Made by a program: the position numbers and the translations under genes | NCBI GenBank assembly: GCA_964638775.1 | Contig: CAZWZH010000066.1 | Span: forward strand, 334 to 64,333 | From: an uncultured Pseudomonadales bacterium | GTDB lineage: Bacteria > Pseudomonadota > Gammaproteobacteria > Pseudomonadales > Azotimanducaceae | Direction: 5' to 3' | Length of the DNA: 64,000 nt | The notes under the pieces: model-generated | The model's input: only the letters and a program-made list of their open reading frames with translations | Databases searched by the model: none | What the model was told of the DNA's origin: nothing | In this document: positions 1 through 14,400 of the stretch, in pieces | How the letters are laid out: each line of letters begins with the position of its first letter | Position numbering within the stretch: position 1 is the stretch's first letter

Positions 1-611
1 ACGCTCCACGGGACCAAGACGCGCTATGTGGACAGACCTCGCCAAAGTGCCGGAAACTCCGCTCGTGGGCCTCGAACACCATCTCCTGGCCTTCGCGCGG
101 GAAAATCTGAACCAGGAAAACGCGACTGTGGCACAGCCGCATGTGCGCCGCCTTGACCCGCACGGTGGTGCCGGCGATCACCGCGTACTCGTGACTCCAG
201 TCGAACTGGTACGCCTCGCCGGGATCGAACGTCAGCGGCACAAAGGCCTGCCCGGCCGATCCGGGGTCGTCGCCGGCGCCAGGACCCCGCGTAACGACGT
301 ACCGCATCGTATCCGCCGTCTTAGCCCAGACCGGCCAGTTCCTCGTAGATCCGCGCCAGCGACAGGCGGTCGCGCCGACTCTTGCCCTCGTTCGCCTCCA
401 ATAGCTGCTCAAGTTCCCCGGTCCAGGCACCGAACTTCGGCAACGGCTGAATCGACCGTTCATAGCGAAACGACGTCTCATCCGAGCGCACCACCCTGCG
501 CACCGTGTTCCGCGACAGCTTCAATTCCCGGGCAATCTGCTTGATCGGTATGCCCCGACCCAGATGATCCCGACGAATCTGCGCAATGGTCTCCACAACC
601 AGCATCTCCAC
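1..611 (-). pseudogene. istA: IS21-family transposase IstA, disrupted by an in-frame TAA and a downstream frameshift
   Basis: The 96-aa ORF at 321-611 has the N-terminal HTH (IKQIARELKLSRNTVRRVV ... RLSLARIYEELAGLG). It stops at a TAA where IstA proteins carry G-Y-x-GGY. Read-through gives DGGYDAVRRY. A shifted frame then gives AFVPLTFDPGEAYQFDWSHEYAVIAGTTVRVKAAHMRLCHSRVFLVQIFPREGQEMVFEAHE, the typical IstA catalytic core. Confidence 0.8.
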
Positions 612-656
612 TCACCTCGCCCGTCCTTGCAACGAGGTAAGTTGATGGCCTCAGTT

Positions 657-717
657 CAGGGGGGTCAGTTTTGGACGCCGATTCCCCCGTCAGGGGGGTC
701 AATATTGCACGCCGATT
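657..717. repeat. Two 27-bp direct repeats (IS21-type terminal transposase-binding repeats)
   Basis: caggggggtcagttttggacgccgatt (657-683) and caggggggtcaatattgcacgccgatt (691-717) match at 22 of 27 positions. Confidence 0.7.
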
Positions 718-1007
718 AACACACATGTCGCAGGTGCGAGCGTTGTTCGGTTATAGGTCCGTCTCTCCGGGGACGCGGTATGACCAGCCCTTCTGGGGCC
801 AGCCCGCCAACCGCCACTTGCCAATACCGCGACCTTCCATCGTCCGAACGCTGCGCTGCGAACCCGGGAAGTTACCCGATTTGGCCACGCCGATGGCCAA
901 AATCGTGGCCTGTTGGAGAGAGCGGGTTGTAGCGGTGTTCTACCGATGTTGAAGTAAGGATTCGGCGAAAGTGGAGAGGTCGAGCCCACACTAGCTTCGT
1001 CCTTGCC

Positions 1008-2384
1008 TCAAAGACCTTGACCGGGACCGCCGAGCAGCCCGTTCGCGGCAGACGCGACGGCCGGCCTCCCCGCATGACTTATGCCGCGTGCCCCCGTCGC
1101 CGACAGCTCCGCCAATTTGCGGTCAGCGATGTGCGAGAGGGTCCCGACTTCGTTGACGACACAATCGCAACCGGAGGCTACGGCGATGGCGCGCGCTACT
1201 GTGACTGCTCCTGCTACAGCACTAACGTACGGCACGGCTACGCTGGCTCCGCCTAACTCCGCTGCCCCGCACGCGCCTATCTCCCGTTCGAGGCGCAGAT
1301 AGGCATCGGCACTAGGACGCTCCTGTCCTCCGGGAGGATCCTCGAGATCGGCGAAATGCTGGTCGATGCGGCGATTTTTGTCGAATACGGTGACGCGATA
1401 CCGGTCGAAGTCTGTCGCCGTGCGTCCCAAGCCCGCATCTACAATGCAGTCAAAACCGACCTTTGCCATGAGCTTGCGTCCACTGACCTTGTCCAGGCCC
1501 GAAAGCGCGAGCCGCGGATCGTCATCCTGAACCCGGTCTCGCGCCGTGAGCCAGCGATCGACTCGTCGAACACGAAACCCCTTTGCCGACGCCCAGTCTT
1601 CAGCCACCTTCGTCTTCAGCGTCCCGTAAGTCTCGGCCTTCACCAACACCGACGTACCCCAGTTCTCTTCGCTAACACTATCTCTGTCCTGAAGGACCAG
1701 GGAGACGTTGCGGGCATCAGCGAATGGCAGCGCGGAAAGCGCCCAGAGATAGGCCTGCCCCAAGTTCCCGAGCCCGACCAGCCAGAGCGCCCCGGGCAGA
1801 AACACCTCTCGGAACCGGGGCGCTTCCTCGCCCTCAGCGACGGGCCAGAGGTCGAGCTGACCCGTGAAATCAACGAGCCGGTTCCTCTCCGCCTCAAAGG
1901 CGACGCCCACCGCCATCGCGCCGGCAGCGATACCGGGCAACGGGTTGTCCCCTTCATCCGGGCGTACCTGGCCTAGTTTCGCTGTCCCCGCTCTCCAGCC
2001 CGTCCACCACGGCGAAACCGCCCAACCCGGCCTAGCGTCGTCTGTACCAATGACAATCCTGCGCGATGCAGCTCCCCGGAAAGACGAAGCGCCAACCCGA
2101 TGCGCCGCCCCGGCAAGGCTCTCGCAGCCCAAGGGCAGGTAAGTGTTCGCAGGGCCGTCCACGGCACCGGCCAGCCGTACGCCACCGACGAAGGTCCTGC
2201 TCGCGACCGACACTGCCGTAAGGGCCGCCGCATGGGCAGCAGGCGAGGAGGCTCCGCTGCCGACGACGACCTCGAGAGTCAGTTGCCTCAGCTTGGCCTG
2301 CGCTTCATCGAACGAGATCCCCTCGCTGTCTACGAGTAGCTTGGAGAGCCGGGCGATCTGTCGGTCTAGCGCCACGGCCACCAT
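1008..2384 (-). CDS. bilD: E1-like ThiF/UBA-family adenylyltransferase (BilD-like)
   Basis: 458 aa. Rossmann-type motif LWLVGLGNLGQAYLWAL sits in the C-terminal half, after a ~190-aa degenerate N-terminal half. There is a Cys-bearing insertion (LEREIGACGAAELGG). The start overlaps the JAB gene end by 19 nt. It is the last gene of a Ubl-E2-JAB-E1 operon. Confidence 0.8.
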   Translation of the reverse strand: MVAVALDRQIARLSKLLVDSEGISFDEAQAKLRQLTLEVVVGSGASSPAAHAAALTAVSVASRTFVGGVRLAGAVDGPANTYLPLGCESLAGAAHRVGASSFRGAASRRIVIGTDDARPGWAVSPWWTGWRAGTAKLGQVRPDEGDNPLPGIAAGAMAVGVAFEAERNRLVDFTGQLDLWPVAEGEEAPRFREVFLPGALWLVGLGNLGQAYLWALSALPFADARNVSLVLQDRDSVSEENWGTSVLVKAETYGTLKTKVAEDWASAKGFRVRRVDRWLTARDRVQDDDPRLALSGLDKVSGRKLMAKVGFDCIVDAGLGRTATDFDRYRVTVFDKNRRIDQHFADLEDPPGGQERPSADAYLRLEREIGACGAAELGGASVAVPYVSAVAGAVTVARAIAVASGCDCVVNEVGTLSHIADRKLAELSATGARGISHAGRPAVASAANGLLGGPGQGL

Positions 2385-2887
2385 CCGATGTGCAGCGGAG
2401 ATGGCTGCTCGAAGCTACGGTCCCGCCAACGGCGCGATCCCAGGTACTCGTACACGCCGATACCCTCGGGACCGGTTTCCCGCGTAGCGAATTTCGGGAG
2501 AATCATGGCCACGTGACCGACTTCTGCTATCACCGGATTGGCACGATCTGAAGGGCTTTGCCCGAACCCGGCGGGGTGGACGTGAATGTCTGCCACAACC
2601 GAGCGCCCGACCCTTCGGCAATAGGTCCAGAGATCACCCAGATGCCGGCCATCGATGAGGACCATCCCTGTCTTCAGTGCGTTCGGATCGATGTCGTCGT
2701 AGAACACGAACTCGTCGATCGCGCGGGCCCGGTTGTTGGAGCCCAGAAGGAAGGCCCCGCTTTCTCGCCGCCCGTCGGCGCGTCGCCTCAGTTCCGCGAC
2801 CCCCCGGCGCCACACTCTGCCACCGCACACGATCTCAGGCGGAGGACCGAGAAGCTTGCGCGCGAGCGTTGCTGTTAAGGATGCCAT
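2366..2887 (-). CDS. bilC: JAB/MPN (JAMM) metalloisopeptidase (BilC-like)
   Basis: 173 aa. It has an upstream Glu (RESGAFLLG) and a JAMM-like metal site (DIHVHPAGFGQSPSD). It overlaps both neighbouring genes. Confidence 0.8.
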   Translation of the reverse strand: MASLTATLARKLLGPPPEIVCGGRVWRRGVAELRRRADGRRESGAFLLGSNNRARAIDEFVFYDDIDPNALKTGMVLIDGRHLGDLWTYCRRVGRSVVADIHVHPAGFGQSPSDRANPVIAEVGHVAMILPKFATRETGPEGIGVYEYLGSRRWRDRSFEQPSPLHIGWWPWR

Positions 2888-3311
2888 GCAGGTCCTGAAA
2901 CACGAAAGTAAGGCGCCGCTTCGGATTCCACGCCAAGTGCGGGTAGGCGGCTGTGTTGTTGTTGTGGGGTCCAGTCTTGCGGTCCCACGGGCGGTAGACG
3001 GTGTCGTCGCCCCAGTTCTTGAACGTCTGCTTGACCCGTCTGCCTCCCTGAGGCCGACGGTCGACGGCTAGAGGGGCGTTGCGCTCGTGGTCCCAAATGC
3101 GGACCAAAGGCGCCTGCGCGGCGTAGTTCGAAAGGTCCGCCCGGAAGCCATACTCGCTGGCCGTGCCGTCCGGCTCTGTAGCGGAGACGGCAAAATCCAG
3201 GGTGGGGAACTCGAACGAGACGACTCGCCAGCGGCCCTGGTCGCAGCCTCGGACGAAGTCGCCTTCCTTCAAGTCGGCCTCGATGCGCGCGATGGCGGGA
3301 TCCGCGATCAT
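2835..3311 (-). CDS. bilB: E2/UBC-like protein (BilB-like), atypical cysteine content
   Basis: 158 aa. UBC-like segment EYGFRADLSNYAAQAPLVRIWD resembles the F-x-x-x-x-YP-x-x-P-P-x-v-x-F signature. It sits between the Ubl and JAB genes. The start ATG shares one nucleotide with the Ubl stop (TGATG). The only Cys is C23. Confidence 0.6.
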   Translation of the reverse strand: MIADPAIARIEADLKEGDFVRGCDQGRWRVVSFEFPTLDFAVSATEPDGTASEYGFRADLSNYAAQAPLVRIWDHERNAPLAVDRRPQGGRRVKQTFKNWGDDTVYRPWDRKTGPHNNNTAAYPHLAWNPKRRLTFVFQDLHGILNSNARAQASRSSA

Positions 3312-3601
3312 CAGGAGCCTCCGTTGGCGATGTCGCCCCGCACCAGATCGAGCGCGAGGTCATCGTCCTTACCCGCTAGGCGCCCGATGTGATCCCGCTC
3401 CGGTAGCTCGTCCTTCTCGCCATGTCGGACCAGAACAAGCTCGGTCGCCAAGCTCCCGTCGACCTTAAACACCTTGATCGCCCAGCTGAGCACGTCCTTA
3501 ACGGCTTCGAATCGTTTGAACTCGAGGCTCTCCTCGCCAGACTGGTAGTAGACGGTAACCTTTACCTCGACCGCTTCCTTCCCTTCGACAATCTCACTCA
3601 T
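3311..3601 (-). CDS. bilA: Ubiquitin-like beta-grasp protein with C-terminal ...NGG-S tail (BilA-like)
   Basis: 96 aa. The alternating strand/helix pattern fits one beta-grasp domain. The C terminus is DIANGGS: a Gly-Gly followed by one residue. It is the first gene of the operon. Confidence 0.7.
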   Translation of the reverse strand: MSEIVEGKEAVEVKVTVYYQSGEESLEFKRFEAVKDVLSWAIKVFKVDGSLATELVLVRHGEKDELPERDHIGRLAGKDDDLALDLVRGDIANGGS

Positions 3602-3733
3602 TCATTCGTCTCCATGCGCCCCAGCGATGTTCGCCGGCGTTGAAACCCTATGCGGAGACTGGACTGTGGCGCGGACATTGACCCATCATGTCCGAGCGGG
3701 CAGGAGGGGGCCGCATAAGAAGAGGCAGACAAG

Positions 3734-4270
3734 ATGCGGCCACGCCGGATGAGCCCAGATGAGATCGCCCAGGCGATCGAAACCCTATCGGATGCTAATT
3801 GGGTACGCCTGAAGAAGGCTGCTCAGCACTACGCCCGCCCCGCGGTCTCGGCTGACGACCTGCTGCAGGAGGCCTTCACCCGCGCCTTGGCGGGTAGTCG
3901 AACATGCCCGGAAGGCGTGGATGTCGTTAAGTTTCTGGCCGAAGCCATGCGCAGCATTGCTCACGGAGAACAGGAGAAGTTCCGTGAGTTGGAGGAACTC
4001 GATGGTGTCGATGGTGCTGCCCTGCCCGCGTCCACGCCCTTGGAGACCGAGATCGCCGACACGGAGCAGTACGAGGTGATCCTCGGGAAAATCCTGTGTC
4101 TCTTTGAGGACGACCCTACAGCGAAGGAGATCGTGGAGGGCATTACGGCGGGACTCACGGCGGAGGAGCTACGAGAACTGACCGGGCTCGACCAGACGGC
4201 GTACAACTCCAAGCGGAGGCTCATACGCCGACGCATCGACAAGAGATTCCCTGAAGGATTCACGCTATGA
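3734..4270 (+). CDS. Small sigma-70/ECF-like factor (region 2 + region 4 like)
   Basis: 178 aa. DDLLQEAFTRAL resembles region 2. LTAEELRELTGLDQTAYNSKRRLIRRRI resembles a region 4 HTH. It is transcribed divergently from the Ubl operon, with a 132-bp gap. Confidence 0.55.
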   Translation: MRPRRMSPDEIAQAIETLSDANWVRLKKAAQHYARPAVSADDLLQEAFTRALAGSRTCPEGVDVVKFLAEAMRSIAHGEQEKFRELEELDGVDGAALPASTPLETEIADTEQYEVILGKILCLFEDDPTAKEIVEGITAGLTAEELRELTGLDQTAYNSKRRLIRRRIDKRFPEGFTL

Positions 4271-4689
4271 CCGGAAAGAAAGAGAGCGCTCGAGAGGACC
4301 TCAACCGGTTGGCCGATGCCCTCGTCGAGGACATTCTGAGCACGCCGGACGACGAACTGTTGGCTGAATTCCGGGAAGAGGGGCAAGACCCACAGCGCAA
4401 TGCCGCCGCATTGCGCAGTCTCTTCCGGCAGAGCCTGTTGGCAGCCAGGAAACGGAGAATGTCGGATGCGAAAGCAGGCGTCGCGGCCGTTCGCCAAGCT
4501 GATCGGGCGGGCCTGGGCGGTGAGGTGACGGACATTGCAGCGGCGCGGGCGCGTCTCCAGTCTCTGATTAAGCGTCACCCCGGTCAGTTGACACTGGCAG
4601 CGCGCAATGAGGCCGAGCTGTCGGACGCGGATGTCCTCGGCATGCTCAAAGACCTAGCAGAGCTTGGCCTCATCGATCCCGAGGAGTAG
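4267..4689 (+). CDS. Hypothetical helical protein, translationally coupled to the sigma-like gene (possible anti-sigma or adaptor)
   Basis: 140 aa. Its ATG overlaps the upstream TGA (ATGA). No TM segment or recognisable motif. Acidic C terminus. Confidence 0.5.
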   Translation: MTGKKESAREDLNRLADALVEDILSTPDDELLAEFREEGQDPQRNAAALRSLFRQSLLAARKRRMSDAKAGVAAVRQADRAGLGGEVTDIAAARARLQSLIKRHPGQLTLAARNEAELSDADVLGMLKDLAELGLIDPEE

Positions 4690-4698
4690 GGCGGGGAA

Positions 4699-5457
4699 GT
4701 GAGGCTTCGGCCAGCCGAGTTGCTGCTGCAGGACTTGGGGGTCACCGAGCCGAAGGAGATCGATCTCGAAGCGATCGCGTTCTATGTTAATGCGCAAGTG
4801 CGCTACCGGATCCTGGACGGGTGTGAAGCACAGATAGTCGGATCGGCCGATAAAGCGATCATTACGGTCAACCAGAGCAGCCCCAGGCGCAGGAAGCGAT
4901 TCTCGATTGCCCACGAGCTAGGCCACTGGCACTACCACCGCGGGCGTCGCCTGACCTGTGTGGTTGAGGCGTACCGTCCCCGAACCGCGTCCCCCGAGCG
5001 GACTGCGGACGGCTACGCTGCTGACCTGCTCATGCCACGATACTTGTTCCAGCCGCTCATCCGCCAACAGAAACAGCTGGACTTTGCAGCAATCGGGTTC
5101 CTTGCGGCGGAGTTCGATGTGAGCCAGACCGCGACGGCCATTCGAGCTACCGAGAGTGACCACTCGCCAGTGATGCTGGTCTGTCACGGGGACGGTGGAC
5201 GCAAGTGGTTTGCACGGGCTCCGAGCGTACCTGAACGGTGGTTCCCCCAGAGTCAGCTGGACTCGGATAGTTTCGCCTACGATGTCCAGTTCGGCTCTGA
5301 GCCCGACGGCACGAGGCTCAGGAAGATTGACGCTGATGCTTGGTTTGACCGGCGGGACGCTGGTCGTTTCGAACTCCTTGAGCAGACCATCACCGTAGGT
5401 CCAGACGAAACACTGACGCTTCTCGTCTTCACGGACGAGGAGATGCTCGACGAGTAG
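4699..5457 (+). CDS. ImmA/IrrE-family (DUF955) zinc metallopeptidase with C-terminal extension
   Basis: 252 aa. HEXXH motif in FSIAHELGHWHYH, with downstream ADLLMP typical of the family. GTG start 10 nt after the previous gene. Confidence 0.75.
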   Translation: MRLRPAELLLQDLGVTEPKEIDLEAIAFYVNAQVRYRILDGCEAQIVGSADKAIITVNQSSPRRRKRFSIAHELGHWHYHRGRRLTCVVEAYRPRTASPERTADGYAADLLMPRYLFQPLIRQQKQLDFAAIGFLAAEFDVSQTATAIRATESDHSPVMLVCHGDGGRKWFARAPSVPERWFPQSQLDSDSFAYDVQFGSEPDGTRLRKIDADAWFDRRDAGRFELLEQTITVGPDETLTLLVFTDEEMLDE

Positions 5458-5468
5458 CGGAAGTAGAT

Positions 5469-5636
5469 GTGGGGAACGCGGGGCCACCGCTTGGCCCCAC
5501 GCCCGCGGCCGACTATGAGCGGCACCGCCCCGAAGAGATCCCGCTCTACGCGATCATCGAGACGTACTACCCGCAGTTTCTCACTCGGCTCGAAGCCCAC
5601 GGTGGCTCGCTGCCCGCGTTCATCAAGCGGGCGTAA
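5469..5636 (+). pseudogene. N-terminal scrap of an IS91-family / zinc-binding-domain transposase
   Basis: The 55-codon ORF ...ADYERHRPEEIPLYAIIETYYPQFLTRLEAHGGSLPAFIKRA* resembles the conserved N terminus of IS91-type transposases (RP-E-x-PLY ... LP-F-V/I-K). The Cys-rich zinc domain and the catalytic part are missing. Confidence 0.4.
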
Positions 5637-5958
5637 GCGAAGTGGAAGCGGATCGAAGCATGCACCGCACCCCGGTGCCACGGGTGATTCACGATGCCGG
5701 TACCAGCGGTTCGAATCGATCGGGCAACGGCCATGCAGTCTGTACGCATTCAACTCGCCAGGGTGCCAATGATGGTTTTCGACATCGCCGCATCGACGGC
5801 GGAATCCTTCCCCCCAAGCCTTGATGCAACGCGTTGCTTCAACTACGGTGCCGCCGAGAACCGAATCCTGCATCCGGGAAATCTTGCGACCGTCCCGCTA
5901 ACGAAGCAAATTCTCGACAGCAATCCGCACACCCCAACCCCCAAACTGAAGCGATCCC

Positions 5959-6582
5959 ATGGCAATAGCACGAAACACGATCGACCCGGCGTACTTCAAC
6001 CCAAAGCTGAAGTTCCCCTACCAGTTGAGAACGGACGACTTCCGTTCGGCAATGCAGGACGTCTATGACTTCTTCCACGACGTAAACGAGCATCTGGTTG
6101 CAAAAGGTCTTCAGCGACTCGATGACAGCCTGCGGCCGGCAATCATGTCAGGCGTTCTTTCGGACTTGCTTACGTCCAGCCTTGCCACGCACTCCAGGGT
6201 CCTCATAGAGAACAGGTACTTCAACGGACACCCAGACCTCTTGGTGCAGGGCGTATACCCGAACAACGCCGTCAAGGCGGGCGAACGAGGGGTGGAAGTC
6301 AAGACCACTCGAAAGAAGGGTGGGGCAGTCGATACACATGGCGCTCGAAACCAATGGATGTGCGTTTTCGTCTACGAGGTCGACACCACATCGGAGCCGG
6401 CCGTGGAAAGGCTGCCGATGACCTTCAGGGAGGTCTACCTTGGCGAGGTCACGCTCGATGATTTCAGAAGGAATCCCAGGGGAGAACTCGGCACCAGAAC
6501 GGCGACGCTGCATGCGGAAGGGATAAGCAAGCTTCGGGAGAATTGGGTGTACAAGATTCAATCGGACCCGTTGGGGGCATAA
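5959..6582 (+). CDS. Type II restriction endonuclease, PD-(D/E)XK fold
   Basis: 207 aa. The motif is NGHPDLLV ... GVEVKTT (PD...ExK). It is convergent with, and overlaps, the adjacent methyltransferase. Confidence 0.6.
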   Translation: MAIARNTIDPAYFNPKLKFPYQLRTDDFRSAMQDVYDFFHDVNEHLVAKGLQRLDDSLRPAIMSGVLSDLLTSSLATHSRVLIENRYFNGHPDLLVQGVYPNNAVKAGERGVEVKTTRKKGGAVDTHGARNQWMCVFVYEVDTTSEPAVERLPMTFREVYLGEVTLDDFRRNPRGELGTRTATLHAEGISKLRENWVYKIQSDPLGA

Positions 6583-7739
6583 GCGGTGAGTTTGGGGATC
6601 GCTTCTACAGCGGTCCGGAAATAGTCCCTGTCTATCTCGATGCCGATGCTGCTGTAACCCACCGCATTGCTGGCCGCCAATGTCGACCCCGCGCCGGCAA
6701 AGGTGTCGAGCACGACTCCTTCTCCGAGCGGCAGCACCCCGCGAACCAGTGTACGAAGGAACACCTGGGGCTTGAGGCTGGGATGCGGCGCCAGTGCTTT
6801 CTCGGCCCGCCGGGTAGGGGCCGATGCAATGACGTCGCCGAAGGGCTTTTTGGCTTCCGGGCGACGGAATCCGCCCGTTTTCCATTTCCGCAAGTTGTCC
6901 TGAACCCTGCCGTCGAGGGGTTTTCTGAAAACCAGCCAAGGCTCCCACATCGAGCGAGGCATCACGCTGACATCGGAGAATTCAGCGTGGGCACCCTTGG
7001 GACGGTCGCCTCCTCGCATCGTCATTGTCAGCCGTATGATCTCGCCGCGCCGCTGCAGACCTGCCCGGGATAGTGCGACCGCAACAATGTGGGAAACCAG
7101 CGGATTCGAAGCGACTATGACGTTCGCGCCGGGAACCAGTACGCGATGCGCGGTTTTTCCCCATGCGACGAAGAAATCCCCGATCTCACCGAGTTGACTC
7201 TCGTCCAGGGTCGTAAAACGGGGCAGGGGCGACCTCCGGTGGCCGTCAAACGACGGGGGAATGCGCCAGACCCCACCCTTGCCGGCCCGCAGCTTGGTCT
7301 GTTGTTCAGCCGTGTATTCATGCAGACCGTATGGCGGATCAGTGACGATCGCGTGCACCGAATTCGGGCTGGCTGCGTCCAGCCAGGAGAGGCAATCGTC
7401 GTGGTGGAGCGTGGAGTTCTGGAATGAAAACGGCTTTTCGGATGCCTCCACCGGTGCAAGAAATCGTTGTCGCAGGCTCGGCTTCGGCGACCTGGCCCGA
7501 TACACGCCTCTGCTTTCGCGGACGAATCGTGCCGGAGTATTGAGCCGAAGATACGACCTGATCGACGAAGTCGGCGTTTCGCCGATCTCTTTGCGAACAC
7601 CTGCTTCGATTTCGAGAACGCTGAGGGGCGCGGCAGATTCCTCAAGCACCTTGACTATGGCATCCCGGACGAGGCCTGGGGCCCGTTTCTTGGCGGACTT
7701 CATTCGTAGAGAGTATGACGTCTGGACGTCTGAAGTCAA
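6558..7739 (-). CDS. Beta-class DNA methyltransferase (N6A/N4C) with an N-terminal winged-helix (HARE-HTH-like) domain
   Basis: 393 aa. Motif IV is IVTDPPYG. Motif I near the C terminus is VLDTFAGAGSTL; IV before I indicates the beta class. N-terminal segment RDAIVKVLEESAAPLSVLEIEAGVRKEIGETPTSSIRSYL...GVYRA looks like a HARE-HTH. Confidence 0.8.
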   Translation of the reverse strand: MTSDVQTSYSLRMKSAKKRAPGLVRDAIVKVLEESAAPLSVLEIEAGVRKEIGETPTSSIRSYLRLNTPARFVRESRGVYRARSPKPSLRQRFLAPVEASEKPFSFQNSTLHHDDCLSWLDAASPNSVHAIVTDPPYGLHEYTAEQQTKLRAGKGGVWRIPPSFDGHRRSPLPRFTTLDESQLGEIGDFFVAWGKTAHRVLVPGANVIVASNPLVSHIVAVALSRAGLQRRGEIIRLTMTMRGGDRPKGAHAEFSDVSVMPRSMWEPWLVFRKPLDGRVQDNLRKWKTGGFRRPEAKKPFGDVIASAPTRRAEKALAPHPSLKPQVFLRTLVRGVLPLGEGVVLDTFAGAGSTLAASNAVGYSSIGIEIDRDYFRTAVEAIPKLTAYAPNGSD

Positions 7740-7836
7740 CGGAAAACATGGTCAGAAATACGCGTCAAGCAGCGCCTGGTGTTATAGCGGTTTCAGTGAC
7801 CCCTTGGCTGTACGACGAGCGGTGCAATGAATCGAA

Positions 7837-8105
7837 GACTCCGGTAAAGCCTCAGTAATACTGAGCCTCACCAAGATCAAACCGGGCCTCGGTCAATCGG
7901 CGGAATGGCCTCGGGCATCGCACGGACGTTGGTTTTCCGAGGTATCGCACGGCGCGATAGCAGGAGCGTCGGCGCGATGCGGCGCATCGTGCATCAATAA
8001 TACTTAGCCACACCCCCACCAACTTTCGTTGCGGGAGACCGCGCGCCGATTCACCATAACGCGCCAGATTCGCAGGCCCCGGATGGGACTGCTCCGTGGA
8101 CGGAC
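7837..8105. repeat. Copy A of a ~270-bp dispersed repeat (LysR leader/promoter segment)
   Basis: Blocks shared with 20798-21065 in the same order and spacing: ctccggt(a/c)aagcctca..aatactgagcc, cctcggtcaatcggcgg, gtgcatcaataatact(t/g)agccaca, ttttcgttgcg, c(t/c)(c/t)cgtggac. Confidence 0.7.
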
Positions 8106-8421
8106 CTGGCGCATGGAGGGTGCGGATGACGACACAAGACGATCTGAAGAAGCCGCGACCTGGCCGGTGCGCGGGGCTTGCCTAGTGCGGGGCAGCGTTG
8201 GTCCTGGCGGTGTCCGGCGCTCCCGCAGCCCGGAGGGCCTGGCTGATCGCGGTAAAGGGCGCTGGGGTGGGGTGCACGCCGAGGCTGGTGCCGACACCGG
8301 CTAAAGCGTTGGGATGGGTCGTGCATCTCTTGGCCACCGCGACAGGCGGCACGCGCGCGGTTTCGGCACGGACGCGAACACCGGGGGTGCAACCTGGCGT
8401 CTGTGGGGGGCCGTGTCGGCG

Positions 8422-11400
8422 ATGAAGATCCCGAGGCGGGTACCCCGGGAACCCGCGAGGAGGACCGCCAGGCGGGCGGGGTCAGCGTATCGACGCTGCG
8501 CGGAGGGCGCGTTGAAGGCTGCTGAGCCGGCGGTTGGCGTCGTACCGGAGGTGGCAAACGACTCCCTTGTGCGAGCAGCGCGTTACGGCACCGCGGTCGC
8601 GCTGACCATCGCCTTGCTCGCCGCCGTCACCGCGTCGCCGGTTCCGCCGCGTGCGTTTGCGAGTGAAGCCGACGTCTCCATGCAAGACCCCCCTCGCGGC
8701 GTTGCGGTATCGATCGAGTCCAGCCCCTCGGATAACCGCAGTTCCTACCGGATCGGAGAGACGATTTCGGTGGCGGTGGAGTCCGACCAGCACGGTCACC
8801 GGGTCGACGGCGAGAGGCCGAAACCGTCTGCCGGAGCCATCGCCGCGGCGGGCAGCGAGGTCTCGATCGTCTTCGACGAGGTTCTGGACGAAGACTCCGT
8901 ACCGCCCGCCGACGCGTTCTCGGTGACCGTCGACGACGCGGCGTATCCGGTGACAGCCGTCTCCGTGGCCGGCGACTCGGTCTCGCTGACACTGAGCCGG
9001 GATGTTCCGGCGGCCGGGCCGGATCTCGTGGTGACTTACGTGGATCCGGTGGACGCGTCCGCTGTCCGGATCCGCGACACGGCCGGCAACGCGGCGGCGA
9101 GTTTCGTGTCGGACCGGGGTCGGGAAGGCACTCAGGATGCGGACCCGGCCCCTCGGACAGGGCGCGAGATGCCCGCGGCCGACAGGCCGAGCATCGGCGA
9201 GATCCTTGCGCAGAAGGCGTTGCGAACGCCGGCGGAACGCAAGGTGAGTTCCCGGCTTCTGCAGGCCCGGCGGGATCGAGGCGCGGACGGACCGGAAAGA
9301 GCGGACGGGGCCGACAGCCGGCCCGCTGACGACGAACGCATCCTGGTGGACATCCGGGCGGACGTGACATCCGAAGTGCTCGAGCGCATCGAAGCGCTGG
9401 GCGGTGAAGTGGAGGATCGCCACCGGCGCTACCGGTCCATCCGGGCGCGACTGACGCCGGAGGCGGCGCTGCAGCTCGCGGAACTGGACGCGGTGCAGAC
9501 CATCCATCCCGCCGACCGGGCGAGGACGCATCAAAACGATGAGGATGAGGAAGAGGATGAGGAAGAGCCCCCGATGCGCAACACATCGGAGGGCGATGCC
9601 GCGCACGCCGCGGCCGCCGCGCGCGCCACCTACGCGGTCGACGGCACTGGAATCGGCATCGGCGTGATTTCGAACGGCGTTGGGTCGCTCGCGCAACTGC
9701 AGGCGTCGGGCGATCTTCCGAACCACGTCCACGTGCTGCCGGGGCAGCAGGGGGAAGCGACCGGAGAAGGGTACGAAGGCGCGGCATTGCTCGAAATCGT
9801 CCACGATCTGGCACCGGGCGCCGACCTCTACTTCGCCACCGGCTTGGGGGGCAAGGCGCGGTTGGCGGCGAACATCGATGCGCTTTGCCGTGCAGGCGCC
9901 GACGTCATCGTCGACGATGTCGTATACATCGAGGAGGCGGCGTTTCAGGACGACGTGATCGCGCAGGCCGTCACTGCGGCGGTGGCCGACGGCTGCTTCC
10001 ATTTTTCCGGGGCCGGCAACTGGGGCAATCTCACGCACACCACACGCGGGGGACGCTCCGGGGTCTGGGAAGGCGACTTCGTTGCCGGGACGGCCTTCAC
10101 CGTGGCTGGCGTAAACGTAGGGACCCGGCACGCGTTCGCAACCGACATGGAAGAGAACGCGTTGACGACCGTGCTGCCAACTTGGCGTGGGTCGATAACC
10201 CTTCAGTGGGCCGACCCCTGGTTCGCGTCGGACAACGACTATGACCTGTTCCTGGTCGATTCTGAGGGCGCGGTCGTTGCGAGTTCGACGAATGTGCAGA
10301 GCGGGTCCCAGCGTCCGTTGGAGGTCATCGAGACGGAAATCGTGGACACCGCAGATATCCGCGTGGTCGTGGTCAAGGCCTCGGGCAGTGCGGACCGCTA
10401 TCTGCGGCTGGTCGCGCACAACCTCGCGTATTTGGACATCACCACGGCCGGCTCCACCTACGGCCACGCCGCCTCCGCGAATGCCTTCGGCATCGGTGCC
10501 GTCAATGCACGCGCGGCCAGGGGGACGGACGGCGCTTTCGACGGCACGGAGTCGGTCCAGTGGTGGAGCGCGGACGGGCCGCGGCGGATGTTCTTCCATC
10601 CGGACGGCGCCGCGGTCACGCCGGGGGACTTCAGTTCGACCGGGGGCGTACTGCTCGCCAAGCCGGACCTCGTCGCGGCTGACTGCGTGACGACGGCGAC
10701 ACCGGGGTTCTCGTACTTCTGCGGCACCTCGGCATCGGCGCCGCACGCCGCGGCGATCGCCGCGCTGGTCCTGGAGGGGGCCGGCGGCCCGGGCAAGGTC
10801 ACCCGGGCCGAGCTTCGTGAGGCAATGGCCACCACGGCCCTCGACATCGGGGCCACCGGCCCCGACCGGGACTCCGGGGCGGGCATCGTCATGGCGCCGG
10901 CCGCGGTCGGCGCGCTCTACGTGCCGGCGGACGTTCGCAACGCGCCGCCGACGGTCGCGAACGCCGTCGGGCATCGGTCGCTGGCGCCGGACTCCCCGCC
11001 GTTCGAGATCGACCTGGCCAGCGTGTTCTCGGATCCGGCCGGGGACGCCCTGACCTACTCCGCCCGGTCGAACCGCCCGGACGGACTGGCCGTGAGCTTG
11101 ACCGGCTCAACCTTGACGCTGACGCCGGGATCGGCGCTGGGTCCGGTGGTCGTGGACCTGCGCGCGACCGACCCCGACCGGCTTGACGCCCGACACAGGT
11201 TCATCGTGACGATCTCCAACAGCGCCGAGCACGTGGTCCGCTCGGACTGGAGCCTGCTGCCGGACGGCGTACCCGTGGGCGGGAGCTTCCGACTGCTGTT
11301 CATGAGTTCGACCAGGCGCGACGGCACGTCGGCCGACCTCTCGGACTACGACAGCCACGTCCAGAGCGCGGCCGCCGGCGGCCTTGCGGACATCCAGGGG

Positions 11401-14400
11401 TACAGCAGCGAATTCGCCGCGGTGGTCTGCACGAACAACCAGCAGGACGTCTTCGAGAACACCGGGACGTCTGCGGACGACACCGACGCGCCGATCTACT
11501 GGCTGAGCACGGAGGGCGACGGGGAAGCCGTGGCGAGCGGCTACGCCGATTTCTACGACGGCTATTGGAACCCTAACGAGTACCGCCCCCGGAACCAGGT
11601 GGGATACCGGGGAAGAATCTCAAGTAGCGACCCCGTTATCACCGGCTGCGAAAACGACGGCACGGTGCGTCACGACGGGCTGGGTTCGGGCAACATTTCC
11701 GTGAGAGGCTGGTACGTCAGCAGCGATGGCACGGTGACTGACATCCGATTGGGACCCATGGCGTCGCAGAGCCTAAGGGTGCTCGCGCTGTCCCCGATCT
11801 TTGTGTACTCAGGAGCGGACGACGCCGCGCTGTCGACGCTGTCGCTCGAGGGCACCGAGGGCGCCTTGTTGGACGAGGAGTTCGATCCCGAGACGTTCTT
11901 CTACCGGGTCACCGTCGATTTCGCGGAGAGTCTCACGTTGGACTTCAAGGCGCGCGGCGCGGCTGCGGGGGCGACCGTGTCGGTCCAGGACGCGAACGGT
12001 CGGGTGTTGGACGATGCTGACCCGAATGCGTTGGGTTTCCAGGTCAATCTGGGCCCGCAGCGGAACGTCTTCCAAGTCATGGTGACCGCGGCGGACGGGA
12101 CCACGCTCACCTACCGGGTAGAGGTGTCACGAAACTATCCGACGCTGCTGACGAACCAGGCTATGCCACGCAGTACCCGACTCCACGACGGGTCGGCCAT
12201 TGCGCAGGTGTTCAAGACGGGCAACCACGGGGGCGGCTACCTGCTGGACGCGGTCATCGTGGAACTGGTGGACCCCCCAAGCGCGCCGGAGCCCGGCACC
12301 GCCTATGTCGGGCTATGGTCGGTTGACGAAACCGACCTCTTTGAAGACGCAAACACCAACCAGCTTGTGGTACTCCCTTGGAGCCGCCCGGGGGTCCTGC
12401 TCGAGTCGCTCGCGTCACCGGACGTTTTCGTGGACGGCCCCAACCGCTTCAGCGCGCCACTCGGGACGGTCCTGGAACCTGACACCTACTACTACGTGAT
12501 CGTCAACGAGGGGGTGGACGATGGAGTGTCCGTTGCGCTTTCTGCTGACTACCTAGTGCCTCCCTACGAGTCCGACTACGGTTGGGACGCAAACAACCAC
12601 TCCTACGGACCGACCTTCCGGGCAGACGACATTGGGGACAGGCAGGCCATTCCCAACAGTGTGATTATGCGCATCGAGGGCGGACTGTTGGCCGTCTCGT
12701 GCCCCATCGACCTGGGGGAGCGAACCGCCATCTGGTGGGCAGAGTTGAGTCCGGCAGAGCTAACCGGCCGTTCCTATGACACGTATGGATTCGACCGTGC
12801 GAACGCGGAGGGCGATCTGTCCATCGACTCTTTCGATTTCGGGGGGGCCACGTATGAAGTTACGGACCTGCGCGTCGCGCCGTTGACCGACCCGGCTCTC
12901 ACCGTCTTCGGCATCGAGCCGCGGTTACCGTCGGAGGACGTGCCGGCACTGGCGCTGCACCTATGCGACCGAGTGTTGCCCCTGAGTGCTGGTTCTCTGA
13001 CCAATGTGGTGACTTGGGCCGGCCCCGTTGACGACTGGTCGGACGGCGAGGCGGTCACGGTCGCGCTGTCGGCGGCCAAGGATGCGCTCCTGAGCGGCCT
13101 CTCAGTGCGGGGGGCCACGTTGACTCACGCGACTACCGGGCTCGCAGGGGAGAACAACGAGGGCTTCGAGGCGACCAAGTTCGACTACACCGCGGTGGTG
13201 CCCTCCATTCCGGTGACGGTGACGGCGACGGCGAACGAGCCGGGCGCGCTCATCGCCTACTTCGACAGCGATGGCGCCGCGATCGCGGACGTGGACACCG
13301 AGGAGCTGGGCCATCAGATGGACTTGGACGTCGGTCCAAACGTCGTTTGGATCGTGGTGACTGCGGGTGACCGCAGGCACAGCACGTCCTACAGCGTGAC
13401 GATCGTGTACGAGACGGGGGTGCTGTTGACGAACGAAGGCAACCGTTCCATTTCGTTAGCTACTGAGAATCCGCTTGTTTTCACGCAACCGTTCACGACC
13501 GGATCCCACGCGCACGGCTACCGGGTCGACACGGTCTGGATGGACACCCGAGACTTCTATTTTACGGATTGGGACCCTTCGCAGACGATTATGCGCCTCA
13601 CCGAGGAAAGGTCCGGAGGATTGCCGGACCTGACGTGCGAGGTGATGGCATTGAGAACGCCTCAGGAGCCCGTCCATGGGCCCGACGCGTTCGGTGCGTC
13701 CCGCAACAACAGGCTCAAGCCGGACACGCGCTACCATCTGGTGCTCAATTGGGGGATCAGAGATTCGAATTATCGGGTGAATCCACAACAAGTGCGCGGT
13801 CGGAGCTCCGAGTCCGGGTTTGGCTGGACAATGGATCAGTATCTGTCGTACGTCTCATGGAGACCCGGCAATGACCCTTGGGAGCCATACGATAGTCCTA
13901 GGGCCTTGGAAGTACGGATTGTAGGGTGCGAGTTGCATCCGGCAACGCAGCAGACACTGGTTTCGAACACGGGGCAGGCGCTTGATGACTCGACTTTGAC
14001 TGTGAGCGACACCTTGTCGATGGCGCTCGGTTTCACCACCGGCGACCGCACGACCGGTTTCACGCTCTCGTCGGTGCAGGTCCACTTCCACTCGTGGTTC
14101 GGCACCGGCGACAGGGCGAGGGTCAGCATCTACACGTCAACGTCCTCTGGGGCGCCGAATCAAAGCCTCTACGTCCTGACGAACCCGTCTTCGATCGTGG
14201 ACGGCGCGCTCAATACGTTCACGGCGCCCGAGAACGCGACGCTGGACCCGGACACCGAGTATTTCGTGGTGGTGGAGGCGGTGGAGGGGGTGTTCCGCAT
14301 CGGCCGAGCAAGCTCAAGTGTCGAGGACGTTTGCGAGGCGAGCGGCTGGTCTATCAGAGATCGAAACTATGGCTTCGATGACGCCAATGGAAGCTGGGGA

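What the first reader, a model, noticed from the sequence alone, without database searches (positions are those of the whole stretch)
3602..5457. Divergent sigma-like / unknown / ImmA-IrrE protease cassette next to the Ubl operon: a possible sigma-based analogue of CapH/CapP-type defence regulators
A translationally coupled trio starts 132 bp from the Ubl gene and runs on the opposite strand. It comprises:
- a 178-aa protein with sigma-70 region-2-like and region-4-like segments
- a 140-aa helical protein (ATGA coupling to the sigma-like gene)
- a 252-aa HEXXH ImmA/IrrE-family peptidase with an extra C-terminal domain

HTH-repressor + ImmA/IrrE-protease pairs (ImmR/ImmA, CapH/CapP) are established damage- or infection-responsive switches placed divergently from mobile-element and defence operons. 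Here the repressor position is taken by a sigma-like protein plus a possible anti-sigma. This suggests protease-triggered sigma release that activates the Bil-type operon. I do not know of this arrangement being described.
Basis: inference. Interest (0 to 1): 0.75.

Follow-up and report, generated by a model that had tools for sequence, protein, structure and literature searches.

The report
Sigma-factor version of CapH/CapP defence switch
Next to a ubiquitin-like (Bil) anti-phage operon sits a portable three-gene switch: a divergent ECF-type sigma factor, a small partner protein and the DNA-damage-sensing protease CapP. It carries its own conserved promoter pair and probably turns defence genes on by freeing a sigma factor rather than by destroying a repressor.

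Summary
Three co-directional genes lie 132 bp from, and divergent to, a complete Type II BilABCD operon: a 178-aa sigma-like protein, a 140-aa helical protein (ATGA overlap) and a 252-aa peptidase.

- **Peptidase:** a full-length CapP (PADLOC 8e-65).
- **178-aa protein:** a very divergent ECF-type sigma. The ~22 best Foldseek hits are all ECF sigmas, and 22 of 27 homologues hit TIGR02937.
- **140-aa protein:** no HTH and no known fold. Its last ~35 residues weakly resemble the CapH C-terminal domain.

The trio is conserved in about 55 loci from several phyla, beside CBASS, Bub, Bil, DUF2188 or DUF3892 cargo. The middle gene is sometimes fused to CapP.

I found a family-specific bipartite promoter, ATGTCCG-N17/18-CGCATAGG, back-to-back in the intergenic region. 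One copy faces the cargo and one faces the sigma gene. The window has exactly two matches in 64 kb (0.02 expected).

Most likely mechanism (inferred): CapP cleaves the middle protein, an anti-sigma, and releases the sigma.

Lau et al. 2022 mentioned sigma+capH+capP next to 24 CBASS systems, and Bil+CapH/CapP is published. This is therefore a new, uncharacterised variant of a known regulator.

The parts
1008..2384 (-). bilD (E1-like), last gene of the regulated cargo operon
   Evidence: PADLOC BilD E 1.4e-119 over 7-426. Weak ThiF hit.
2366..2887 (-). bilC (JAB deubiquitinase-like)
   Evidence: PADLOC BilC E 5.8e-61.
2835..3311 (-). bilB (E2-like, DUF7665/BilB-like)
   Evidence: PADLOC BilB E 9.8e-48. 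Pfam DUF7665 E 6e-26.
3311..3601 (-). bilA (ubiquitin-like protein, ends ...NGGS)
   Evidence: PADLOC BilA E 8.4e-23. Translation.
3649..3677 (-). Predicted cassette-specific promoter facing bilA: -35 TGTCCG (3677-3672), 18-nt spacer, -10 GCATA (3653-3649), extended as ATGTCCG...CGCATAGGG
   Evidence: - Exact pattern match. There are only 2 matches in 64 kb against 0.02 expected.
- The same element faces the cargo in 41 of 48 non-redundant loci.
3689..3717 (+). Predicted cassette-specific promoter facing the sigma gene (autoregulation): -35 TGTCCG (3689-3694), 18-nt spacer, -10 GCATA (3713-3717)
   Evidence: - Exact pattern match.
- The same element faces the trio in 41 of 48 loci, with the spacer always 17-18 nt.
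3734..4270 (+). Divergent ECF-type sigma factor (sigma2 + sigma4), 178 aa. The start could alternatively be the ATG at 3749.
   Evidence: - TIGR02937 E 1.4e-4 over 14-168; 22 of 27 family members hit it.
- hhalign to E. coli RpoE region 4: probability 83%.
- AF2 pLDDT 81 with 4+4 helices.
- The ~22 best Foldseek hits are all ECF sigmas.
- Invariant basic helix K160, R165-R167.
4267..4689 (+). 140-aa all-helical partner protein in the capH position; proposed anti-sigma and CapP substrate
   Evidence: - No Pfam or NCBIfam family.
- AF2 model all-helical, pTM 0.32, with no PDB fold match.
- The C-terminal half hits PADLOC capH positions 61-99 of 103, while the N-terminal half hits nothing.
- Always sits between sigma and CapP.
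- Fused to CapP in L013, L040, P0289 and P0307.
4588..4605 (+). Codons for L108-T-L-A-A-R113, the conserved motif proposed as the CapP cleavage site (A112|R113)
   Evidence: - Nearly invariant columns.
- A recognisable form (consensus LTLAAR; the Arg is kept even in the most divergent members) is present in the mid protein of nearly every CapP-containing locus. It is lost in the three CapP-less loci L036, L037 and L039.
- The cleavage site itself is inference, by analogy with CapH F82|R83.
4699..5457 (+). capP: ImmA/IrrE (M78) Zn-metallopeptidase with C-terminal sensor domain. HEXXH at residues 72-76 (nt 4912-4926) and Cys87 (nt 4957-4959), a likely cysteine switch.
   Evidence: - PADLOC capP E 8.2e-65 over the full length.
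- Pfam Peptidase_M78 E 2e-15.
- The only PDB sequence match is 7T5T CapP, E 3e-7 over residues 60-241.
- Motif positions.

Best explanation
The three genes are a portable, self-contained transcriptional switch of the CapH/CapP kind. In it, the HTH repressor CapH has been replaced by a sigma/anti-sigma pair.

1. The 178-aa protein is a highly divergent ECF-type sigma factor. It recognises a cassette-specific promoter, ATGTCCG-N17/18-CGCATAGG.
2. Two copies of that promoter lie back-to-back in the 132-bp intergenic region. One drives bilABCD and the other drives the trio itself, giving positive feedback.
3. In unstressed cells the 140-aa helical protein holds the sigma inactive, i.e. it acts as an anti-sigma.
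4. CapP is the sensor. Its relatives are activated by single-stranded DNA produced by DNA damage or phage infection.
5. Active CapP cuts the 140-aa protein in its CapH-like C-terminal module, probably at LTLAA|R (A112|R113). The sigma is freed and the Bil operon is transcribed.

Shown here:
- the identity of CapP and of BilABCD;
- the ECF-like fold;
- conservation of the trio;
- its association with varied defence cargo;
- the conserved, fixed-spacing divergent promoter pair;
- fusions of the middle protein to CapP.

Inferred:
- sigma activity on RNA polymerase;
- anti-sigma binding;
- cleavage by CapP and its site;
- the ssDNA trigger.
For: **Identity of the parts**
- CapP.
- BilABCD.

**ECF sigma**
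- Sub-threshold but consistent sequence hits.
- 22 of 27 homologues hit TIGR02937, and all other hits are ECF families.
- Region 4 aligns in register with E. coli RpoE.
- The AF2 model has two four-helix domains.
- The ~22 top PDB matches are all ECF sigmas: SigH, RpoE/NepR, CnrH, SigL, SigW, sigmaE, BldN and AlgU.
- The last helix is invariantly basic.

**Promoter**
- TGTCCG and GCATA are the most enriched words upstream of the sigma gene: 38 of 48 loci, against a maximum of 16 in shuffles.
- They occur on the same strand with a 17-18 nt spacer only. The distance between the two divergent copies varies from 10 to 29 nt.
- With up to 2 mismatches, 41 of 48 loci carry the element in each direction, against 2.5 expected.
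- In 866 kb of loci, all 83 exact matches lie in that one intergenic region, and there are none in the canonical CapH/CapP locus L065.
- The window has 2 matches against 0.02 expected.
- No sigma70-type promoter was found in 3300-6100.

**Middle protein**
- No HTH.
- The C-terminal ~35 residues match the capH HMM at positions 61-99, and 30 of 34 members hit capH weakly.
- Fused to CapP in four proteins or loci.
- The LTLAAR motif tracks the presence of CapP.
- The sigma+mid pair persists without CapP in L036, L037 and L039, so those two genes form the core unit.

**Modularity**
- Trios 75-79% identical to this one sit beside Bil (L067) or CBASS (L068, L069).
- Other cargo includes CBASS, Bub, DUF2188 and DUF3892.

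**Published behaviour of CapP**
- ssDNA-activated cleavage of CapH at F82|R83 in its C-terminal domain (Lau et al. 2022).
Against: - No direct evidence that the 140-aa protein binds the sigma. It matches no known anti-sigma family or fold, and I could not predict the complex.
- All sigma hits are below the curated cut-offs (21.5 bits against 42.9 for TIGR02937), and Foldseek E-values are only about 3e-3.
- The similarity of the middle protein to capH is weak (E 4e-3 to 0.035). It could partly reflect mid-type sequences in the seed of the PADLOC model.
- The correlation between the LTLAAR motif and CapP rests on one CapP-less lineage (three related loci).
- In the window the -10 element ends only about 15 nt before the annotated ATG at 3734. 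Either the leader is very short or the true start is the ATG at 3749.
- The loci are evolutionarily related, so motif counts are not independent events.
Confidence: 0.6

Rival explanations
1. This is a canonical CapH/CapP derepression switch. The 140-aa protein would be a divergent CapH that itself binds the intergenic DNA as a repressor, with the inverted ATGTCCG...CGGACAT elements as its operator. The sigma-like protein would be an accessory or unrelated passenger.
For: - The gene occupies the capH position directly upstream of capP, and Lau et al. listed a capH gene in the sigma-containing systems.
- 30 of 34 members weakly hit the PADLOC capH model.
- The two TGTCCG elements form an inverted repeat in the window.
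Against: - No HTH by Pfam, NCBIfam or PADLOC. N-terminal halves hit nothing, whereas a canonical CapH hits HTH_31 at 1e-12 and capH at 3.5e-13.
- The AF2 model consists of long helices with no DNA-binding fold match.
- The distance between the two TGTCCG elements varies from 10 to 29 nt, while each TGTCCG-GCATA pair keeps a 17-18 nt spacer. This fits promoters, not a dimer operator.
- The sigma gene is conserved with the middle gene in every such locus.
Confidence: 0.12
2. The sigma-like protein is not a true sigma. It would be a sigma-fold DNA-binding activator or repressor, or a PhyR-like sigma mimic. It would act on the conserved sites without replacing the housekeeping sigma, and the 140-aa protein and CapP would modulate it.
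For: - Scores are below the family cut-offs, so the family is very divergent.
- PhyR sigma-like domains also appear lower in the Foldseek list.
Against: - Both sigma2 and sigma4 are present, and the protein has no extra domain.
- The target motif has the bipartite -35/-10 geometry, spacing and distance to start codons of an ECF promoter, in both directions.
- No sigma70-like promoter is detectable in the region.
- The DNA-contacting basic residues of region 4.2 are invariant. In a sigma mimic such as PhyR these would not be needed (my own knowledge, not tested here).
Confidence: 0.15
3. The trio belongs to a mobile-element or prophage immunity/induction module of the ImmR/ImmA type. It would control element genes, and its adjacency to Bil here would be incidental.
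For: - Many instances are on plasmids or next to integrases and IS elements.
- An IS21 fragment lies just beyond bilD.
- ImmA/IrrE peptidases are classic regulators of mobile elements.
Against: - Across about 60 loci the gene divergent from the trio is consistently a defence or conflict operon: CBASS, Bub, Bil, DUF2188, DUF3892 or small unknown proteins. It is not an integrase, excisionase or phage gene.
- The conserved promoter points directly into that cargo.
- The peptidase scores as full-length capP.
Confidence: 0.05

Closest known systems
CapH/CapP (Lau et al. 2022, Corbett lab): HTH repressor plus ssDNA-activated M78 metallopeptidase upstream of CBASS, DISARM, Bil and Bub operons
   Same: - The peptidase is a full-length CapP with HEXXH and a probable cysteine switch.
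- The cassette is upstream of, and divergent from, a defence operon.
- The partner gene lies directly upstream of capP and is sometimes fused to it, as reported for CapH-CapP fusions.
- The partner's C-terminal ~35 residues weakly resemble the CapH C-terminal domain that carries the cleavage site.
- The same paper notes 24 CBASS systems with an added sigma70-family gene.
   Different: - The partner has no HTH and no DNA-binding fold.
- An ECF-like sigma gene is an obligate third member.
- The conserved DNA element is a bipartite promoter in two orientations, not an operator.
- The logic would be activation by sigma release, not derepression.
ECF sigma/anti-sigma systems controlled by regulated proteolysis (sigmaE-RseA with DegS/RseP/ClpXP; SigW-RsiW)
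   Same: - A two-domain sigma2-sigma4 protein.
- A co-transcribed small partner with a start/stop overlap.
- An autoregulated promoter with a fixed spacer.
- A dedicated protease gene in the operon.
- Cleavage at LTLAA|R would leave an LAA C-terminus that resembles the VAA end of cleaved RseA. This last point is inference from general knowledge.
   Different: - Everything is cytoplasmic, with no transmembrane segment in the partner.
- The protease is an M78 ImmA/IrrE enzyme, not a site-1 or site-2 protease.
- The signal would be DNA damage or ssDNA rather than envelope stress.
- The partner matches no anti-sigma domain.
DdvS/DdvA of Myxococcus xanthus (ECF sigma and transmembrane anti-sigma controlling a CBASS-CRISPR island; PMC11506125)
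   Same: An ECF sigma/anti-sigma pair controls expression of anti-phage defence genes.
   Different: - DdvA is a membrane anti-sigma with no associated CapP-type protease.
- The present cassette is small, cytoplasmic and mobile, and it is found beside many cargo types.
IrrE/DdrO (Deinococcus) and ImmA/ImmR (ICEBs1)
   Same: An M78 metallopeptidase inactivates a transcription regulator by cleaving near its C-terminal helix after DNA damage.
   Different: In those systems the substrate is an XRE-family HTH repressor. Here it would be a non-DNA-binding sigma inhibitor.

Membership tests
CapP (CBASS-associated/controller peptidase, M78 ImmA/IrrE) | Zn-metallopeptidase domain with HEXXH plus a C-terminal sensor (GAF-like) domain, matched over the full length | tested here: met
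   - PADLOC capP E 8.2e-65, residues 5-244 against model positions 8-241 of 242.
- Pfam Peptidase_M78 E 2e-15.
- PDB 7T5T CapP over residues 60-241.
- HELGH at 72-76.
CapP | Internal cysteine-switch loop (present in about a third of CapPs) | tested here: inconclusive
   Cys87 lies 11 residues after the second His. In the phmmer alignment to 7T5T it sits next to the Thauera switch cysteine. No structural check was made.
CapP | Activated by ssDNA or DNA damage, and cleaves its partner | not testable with these tools
   Needs biochemistry. Known for E. coli MS115-1 CapP.
CapH | N-terminal XRE-family helix-turn-helix DNA-binding domain | tested here: not met
   - No HTH family in Pfam, NCBIfam or PADLOC for the 140-aa protein or for the N-terminal halves of four homologues.
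- AF2 shows long helices with no HTH fold match.
- The control canonical CapH, L065:3447-3818, hits HTH_31 at 1e-12.
CapH | C-terminal domain carrying the CapP cleavage site | tested here: inconclusive
   - C-terminal halves hit capH model positions 61-99 of 103 at E 4e-3 to 5e-3 in 2 of 4 sequences.
- 30 of 34 full-length members hit weakly.
- There was no hit in a profile search of PDB sequences.
CapH/CapP module | Located upstream of, and on the opposite strand to, a defence operon, sharing the promoter region | tested here: met
   There is a 132-bp shared intergenic region with bilA. The layout is the same in related loci.
ECF (group 4) sigma-70 family | Only sigma2 and sigma4 domains, recognisable by sequence | tested here: inconclusive
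   - Sigma70_r2 19.9 bits (cut-off 24) and TIGR02937 21.5 bits (cut-off 42.9).
- 22 of 27 homologues hit TIGR02937, best E 9e-7.
- hhalign to RpoE region 4: probability 83%.
ECF (group 4) sigma-70 family | Sigma2 + sigma4 fold | tested here: met
   The AF2 model has pLDDT 81 and 4+4 helices joined by a disordered linker. Foldseek ranks 1-22 are all ECF sigmas, with probability up to 1.00.
ECF (group 4) sigma-70 family | Group-specific bipartite -35/-10 promoter upstream of its own operon (autoregulation) | tested here: met
   TGTCCG-N17/18-GCATA faces the sigma gene in 41 of 48 loci and faces the cargo in 41 of 48. The window sites are 3689-3717(+) and 3649-3677(-).
ECF (group 4) sigma-70 family | Binds core RNA polymerase and directs initiation | not testable with these tools
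   Needs in vitro transcription or co-purification.
Anti-sigma factors (class I ASD/ZAS, class II NepR/CnrY-type) | Recognisable anti-sigma domain, or a fold that binds sigma2/sigma4 | tested here: not met
   No Pfam or NCBIfam family. No PDB sequence or fold match. The functional role is inferred from position and co-conservation only.
Type II BilABCD | Ubl, E2 (CEHH/BilB-like), JAB DUB and E1 genes in the order bilA-bilB-bilC-bilD | tested here: met
   All four PADLOC models hit, in that order, on the minus strand from 3601 to 1008. The order matches Chambers et al..

The most novel reading that the evidence does not exclude
The cassette is a cytoplasmic, DNA-damage-triggered regulated-proteolysis cascade.

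1. ssDNA-activated CapP cuts the anti-sigma at the conserved LTLAA|R site.
2. This leaves an ssrA/RseA-like ...LAA C-terminus, which hands the sigma-bound fragment to ClpXP.
3. An orthogonal ECF sigma is released, and it reads a private promoter (ATGTCCG-N17/18-CGCATAGG).

This would make the trio a plug-and-play, host-independent 'off until damage' expression module. Horizontal transfer would attach it to many toxic defence operons: CBASS, Bub, Bil, DUF2188 and DUF3892. A family of more than 1,700 sequence clusters, with no Pfam family detected for the members examined, would be a new class of anti-sigma factor.
Probability: 0.3. Interest if true: 0.75.

Novelty: new variant of a known kind. 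Interest (0 to 1): 0.6.

Why it matters
- **Regulatory logic.** CapH/CapP is currently understood as repressor cleavage, i.e. derepression. A widespread version that instead liberates a dedicated sigma factor changes that logic to positive control with feedback. It would explain how very toxic abortive-infection operons can be kept silent and yet remain portable between hosts, because the cassette brings its own promoter specificity.
- **Concrete, testable parts.** The analysis gives a promoter consensus, a candidate cleavage site and a large unannotated protein family (the 140-aa partner) that may be a new anti-sigma class.
- **Annotation.** Genes counted as 'CapH' in surveys of Bil, Bub and CBASS regulators may include a non-HTH protein family.
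- **Synthetic biology.** An orthogonal sigma/anti-sigma/protease/promoter set that responds to DNA damage would be a useful part.

Tried and rejected
- **Profile of the 140-aa family against all PDB sequences.** Only noise came back (HLA chains, a virion RNA polymerase). PDB holds only the HTH half of CapH as 7T5U, so the C-terminal comparison could not be made there.
- **hhalign of the 140-aa family against one canonical CapH, and against the Pontibacter homologues.** Single-sequence templates gave no usable probability. The Pontibacter alignment did span the full length and kept the ...L.L..RN...L motif.
- **Foldseek of the 140-aa model.** Nothing below E = 2.
- **Sigma70-type promoter scan of 3300-6100.** No sites. 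The two terminator-like hits are at chance level.
- **Rfam scan of 1-9000.** Nothing.
- **phmmer of the window's Bil proteins against the 57 genome loci.** No Bil found, so Bil is a minority cargo. A Bil-linked copy was found only through the closest homologue (L067).
- **The listing of cluster members for the window proteins.** No names or organism.
- **EMBO J version of Lau et al.** Not held.
- **Literature searches for a described sigma/anti-sigma/CapP mechanism.** Only the one-sentence mention in Lau et al. and the unrelated DdvS/DdvA system were found.
- **P0313, a sigma4-mid fusion.** Rejected as evidence, because it looks like a deletion or an assembly artefact.
Full report
**1. What is in the sequence**

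The three ORFs exist as described:
- 3734-4270(+), 178 aa
- 4267-4689(+), 140 aa
- 4699-5457(+), 252 aa, GTG start

The first two overlap as ATGA. The third starts 9 nt after the stop of the second, behind a G-rich Shine-Dalgarno-like run.

On the other strand, 132 bp away, lies a complete Type II Bil operon in the order bilA (3311-3601), bilB, bilC, bilD. All four PADLOC models hit, with E from 8e-23 to 1e-119.

**2. The peptidase is CapP**

- It matches the PADLOC capP model end to end (E 8.2e-65) and Pfam Peptidase_M78.
- Its only relative among solved structures is Thauera CapP, 7T5T.
- HELGH is at residues 72-76. Cys87 lies where the CapP cysteine switch is found.

**3. The 178-aa protein is a very divergent ECF-type sigma**

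- Single-sequence scores are below the curated thresholds: Sigma70_r2 at 19.9 bits, and TIGR02937 at 21.5 bits over residues 14-168.
- The family-level evidence is stronger.
  - At least 490 database clusters are homologous.
  - 22 of 27 sampled members hit TIGR02937, and every other hit is an ECF family.
  - Region 4 aligns in register with E. coli RpoE.
- An AlphaFold2 model (pLDDT 81) has two four-helix domains joined by a disordered linker.
- Its ~22 best PDB matches are all ECF sigma factors.
- The last helix is invariantly basic (K160, R165-R167), as expected for -35 recognition.

**4. The 140-aa protein is not a CapH-type repressor**

- It has no Pfam or NCBIfam family.
- Its model is all-helical, with a 40-residue helix and low pTM, and it has no fold match.
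- A canonical CapH used as a control (L065:3447-3818) hits HTH_31 at 1e-12 and PADLOC capH at 3.5e-13.
- N-terminal halves of four family members hit nothing. Two of four C-terminal halves hit capH model positions 61-99 of 103.
- 30 of 34 full-length members hit capH weakly.
- The protein therefore looks like a CapH C-terminal module, the part that CapP cuts at F82|R83 in E. coli CapH, joined to a different N-terminal region.
- The family is large: 1,714 representative clusters at E <= 1e-3.

**5. The trio is a conserved, mobile cassette**

- Of the 57 genome loci found with the sigma-like protein, 47 carry sigma, middle gene and CapP in this order.
  - In two of these (L013, L040) the middle gene and CapP are fused.
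  - Two more fusions are P0289 and P0307.
- Three loci (L036, L037, L039) keep sigma and the middle gene without CapP.
- The same three-gene layout is annotated as 'hypothetical, hypothetical, ImmA/IrrE' on plasmids of Fuscovulum, Cereibacter sphaeroides 2.4.1, Celeribacter, Polaromonas, Pseudoalteromonas, Bradyrhizobium and Pontibacter.
- The divergent cargo varies:
  - CBASS, with CD-NTase/E2/SAVED-HNH or with patatin/Cap2;
  - Bub-type operons (Multi_ubiq, E1, DUF6527);
  - DUF2188 and DUF3892;
  - a PCMT-like methyltransferase;
  - an unknown 92-aa protein.
- None of the 57 genome loci has Bil. The closest homologue (79% identity) does have Bil (L067), while 75%-identical trios sit next to CBASS (L068, L069).
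- The cassette is therefore swapped between cargo operons.

**6. A cassette-specific promoter pair**

- The most over-represented words upstream of the sigma gene are TGTCCG and GCATA, in both orientations.
- On a given strand they are always 17 or 18 nt apart. The two divergent copies are 10 to 29 nt apart. That pattern fits two back-to-back promoters and does not fit a dimer operator.
- Allowing two mismatches, 41 of 48 non-redundant loci have the element facing the trio and 41 of 48 have it facing the cargo. Shuffled sequences give 2.5.
- In 866 kb of fetched loci, all 83 exact matches fall in this one intergenic region. The canonical CapH/CapP locus has none.
- In the window the pattern occurs exactly twice in 64 kb, at 3649-3677(-) and 3689-3717(+), against 0.02 expected.
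- No sigma70-type promoter is detectable there.
- The consensus is ATGTCCG-N17/18-CGCATAGG, and the spacers are not conserved.

**7. Mechanism**

The best-supported reading runs as follows.
1. The sigma reads both promoters, one for the cargo and one for its own operon.
2. The middle protein is its inhibitor.
3. CapP, activated by ssDNA as its characterised relatives are, cleaves the middle protein.

The motif L-T-L-A-A-R (residues 108-113) is close to invariant. A recognisable form is present in the middle protein of nearly every CapP-containing locus, including distant ones. It is lost in the three CapP-less loci, although the following helix is kept there.

By analogy with CapH (F|R) and DdrO (L|R), I propose cleavage at A112|R113. 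This would leave an ...LAA C-terminus that resembles known ClpXP degrons. That last step is speculation.

Sigma activity, anti-sigma binding and cleavage are all inferred rather than shown.

**8. Comparison with what is known**

- CapH/CapP next to Type II BilABCD is published: 25 of 162 operons.
- CapH/CapP is also reported next to Bub operons.
[quoted passage not shown] The gene numbering in their Table S1 is consistent with the order sigma, capH, capP.
- I found no paper that analyses this version, its promoter or the nature of its 'capH'.
- An ECF sigma with a membrane anti-sigma controls a CBASS-CRISPR island in Myxococcus, but that system is otherwise unrelated.

**9. Verdict**

This is a real feature. 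I classify it as a new, uncharacterised variant of a known regulator.

Noticed in passing
L059:5576-5854(-) (Cereibacter sphaeroides 2.4.1 pDE); also L058:5556-5834(-) and 19 of the genome loci (cluster C0): In many loci, though not in the window, the first gene divergent from the sigma gene is a ~92-aa protein with no Pfam, PADLOC or NCBIfam family. It precedes variable cargo (CBASS, Bub) or stands with only a second small 85-aa protein. It may be a fourth, optional component of the cassette or a minimal cargo.
   Followed up: partly
window 5959-6582(+) and 6558-7739(-): Directly after capP lies a convergent pair. One gene encodes a 207-aa protein with a weak type II restriction-enzyme hit (PADLOC REase_II, E 5e-4). 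The other encodes a 393-aa N6/N4 DNA methyltransferase (PADLOC MTase_II, E 2.6e-106; Pfam N6_N4_Mtase). Bil therefore sits in a small defence island.
   Followed up: partly
window 321-611(-): A 96-aa ORF matches only the first 80 positions of the IS21-family transposase model (NF033546, E 2.3e-13). This IS fragment lies just beyond the end of bilD and is consistent with a mobile context.
   Followed up: partly
window 8314-19323(+): A 3,669-aa ORF in a region of 68-76% GC. By eye its translation contains protease-like, repeated and leucine-rich-repeat segments. I did not analyse it.
   Followed up: no
L036:8001-9010, L037:7971-8977, L039:2815-3833: A sub-lineage keeps the sigma and the 140-aa partner but has no CapP. 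It sits divergent from a PCMT-like methyltransferase, still has the TGTCCG...GCATA promoter, and has lost the LTLAAR motif. Its input signal must differ.
   Followed up: partly
L067:4849-6273(-): In the closest relative of this locus (sigma 79% identical), a DDE transposase is inserted in the Bil operon within or after bilB, leaving a 75-aa BilB-like fragment.
   Followed up: no
P0313 (212 aa, metagenome protein): This protein joins the sigma region 4 directly to residues ~43-133 of the 140-aa family. It could be a natural deletion or fusion variant, or an assembly artefact.
   Followed up: no
window 3734 vs 3749: The -10 element of the trio-facing promoter ends only about 15 nt before the annotated ATG at 3734. 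In most homologous loci the -35 element starts near -54 relative to the start codon, against -45 here. The leader is either very short or translation starts at the conserved Met6 (ATG at 3749).
   Followed up: partly
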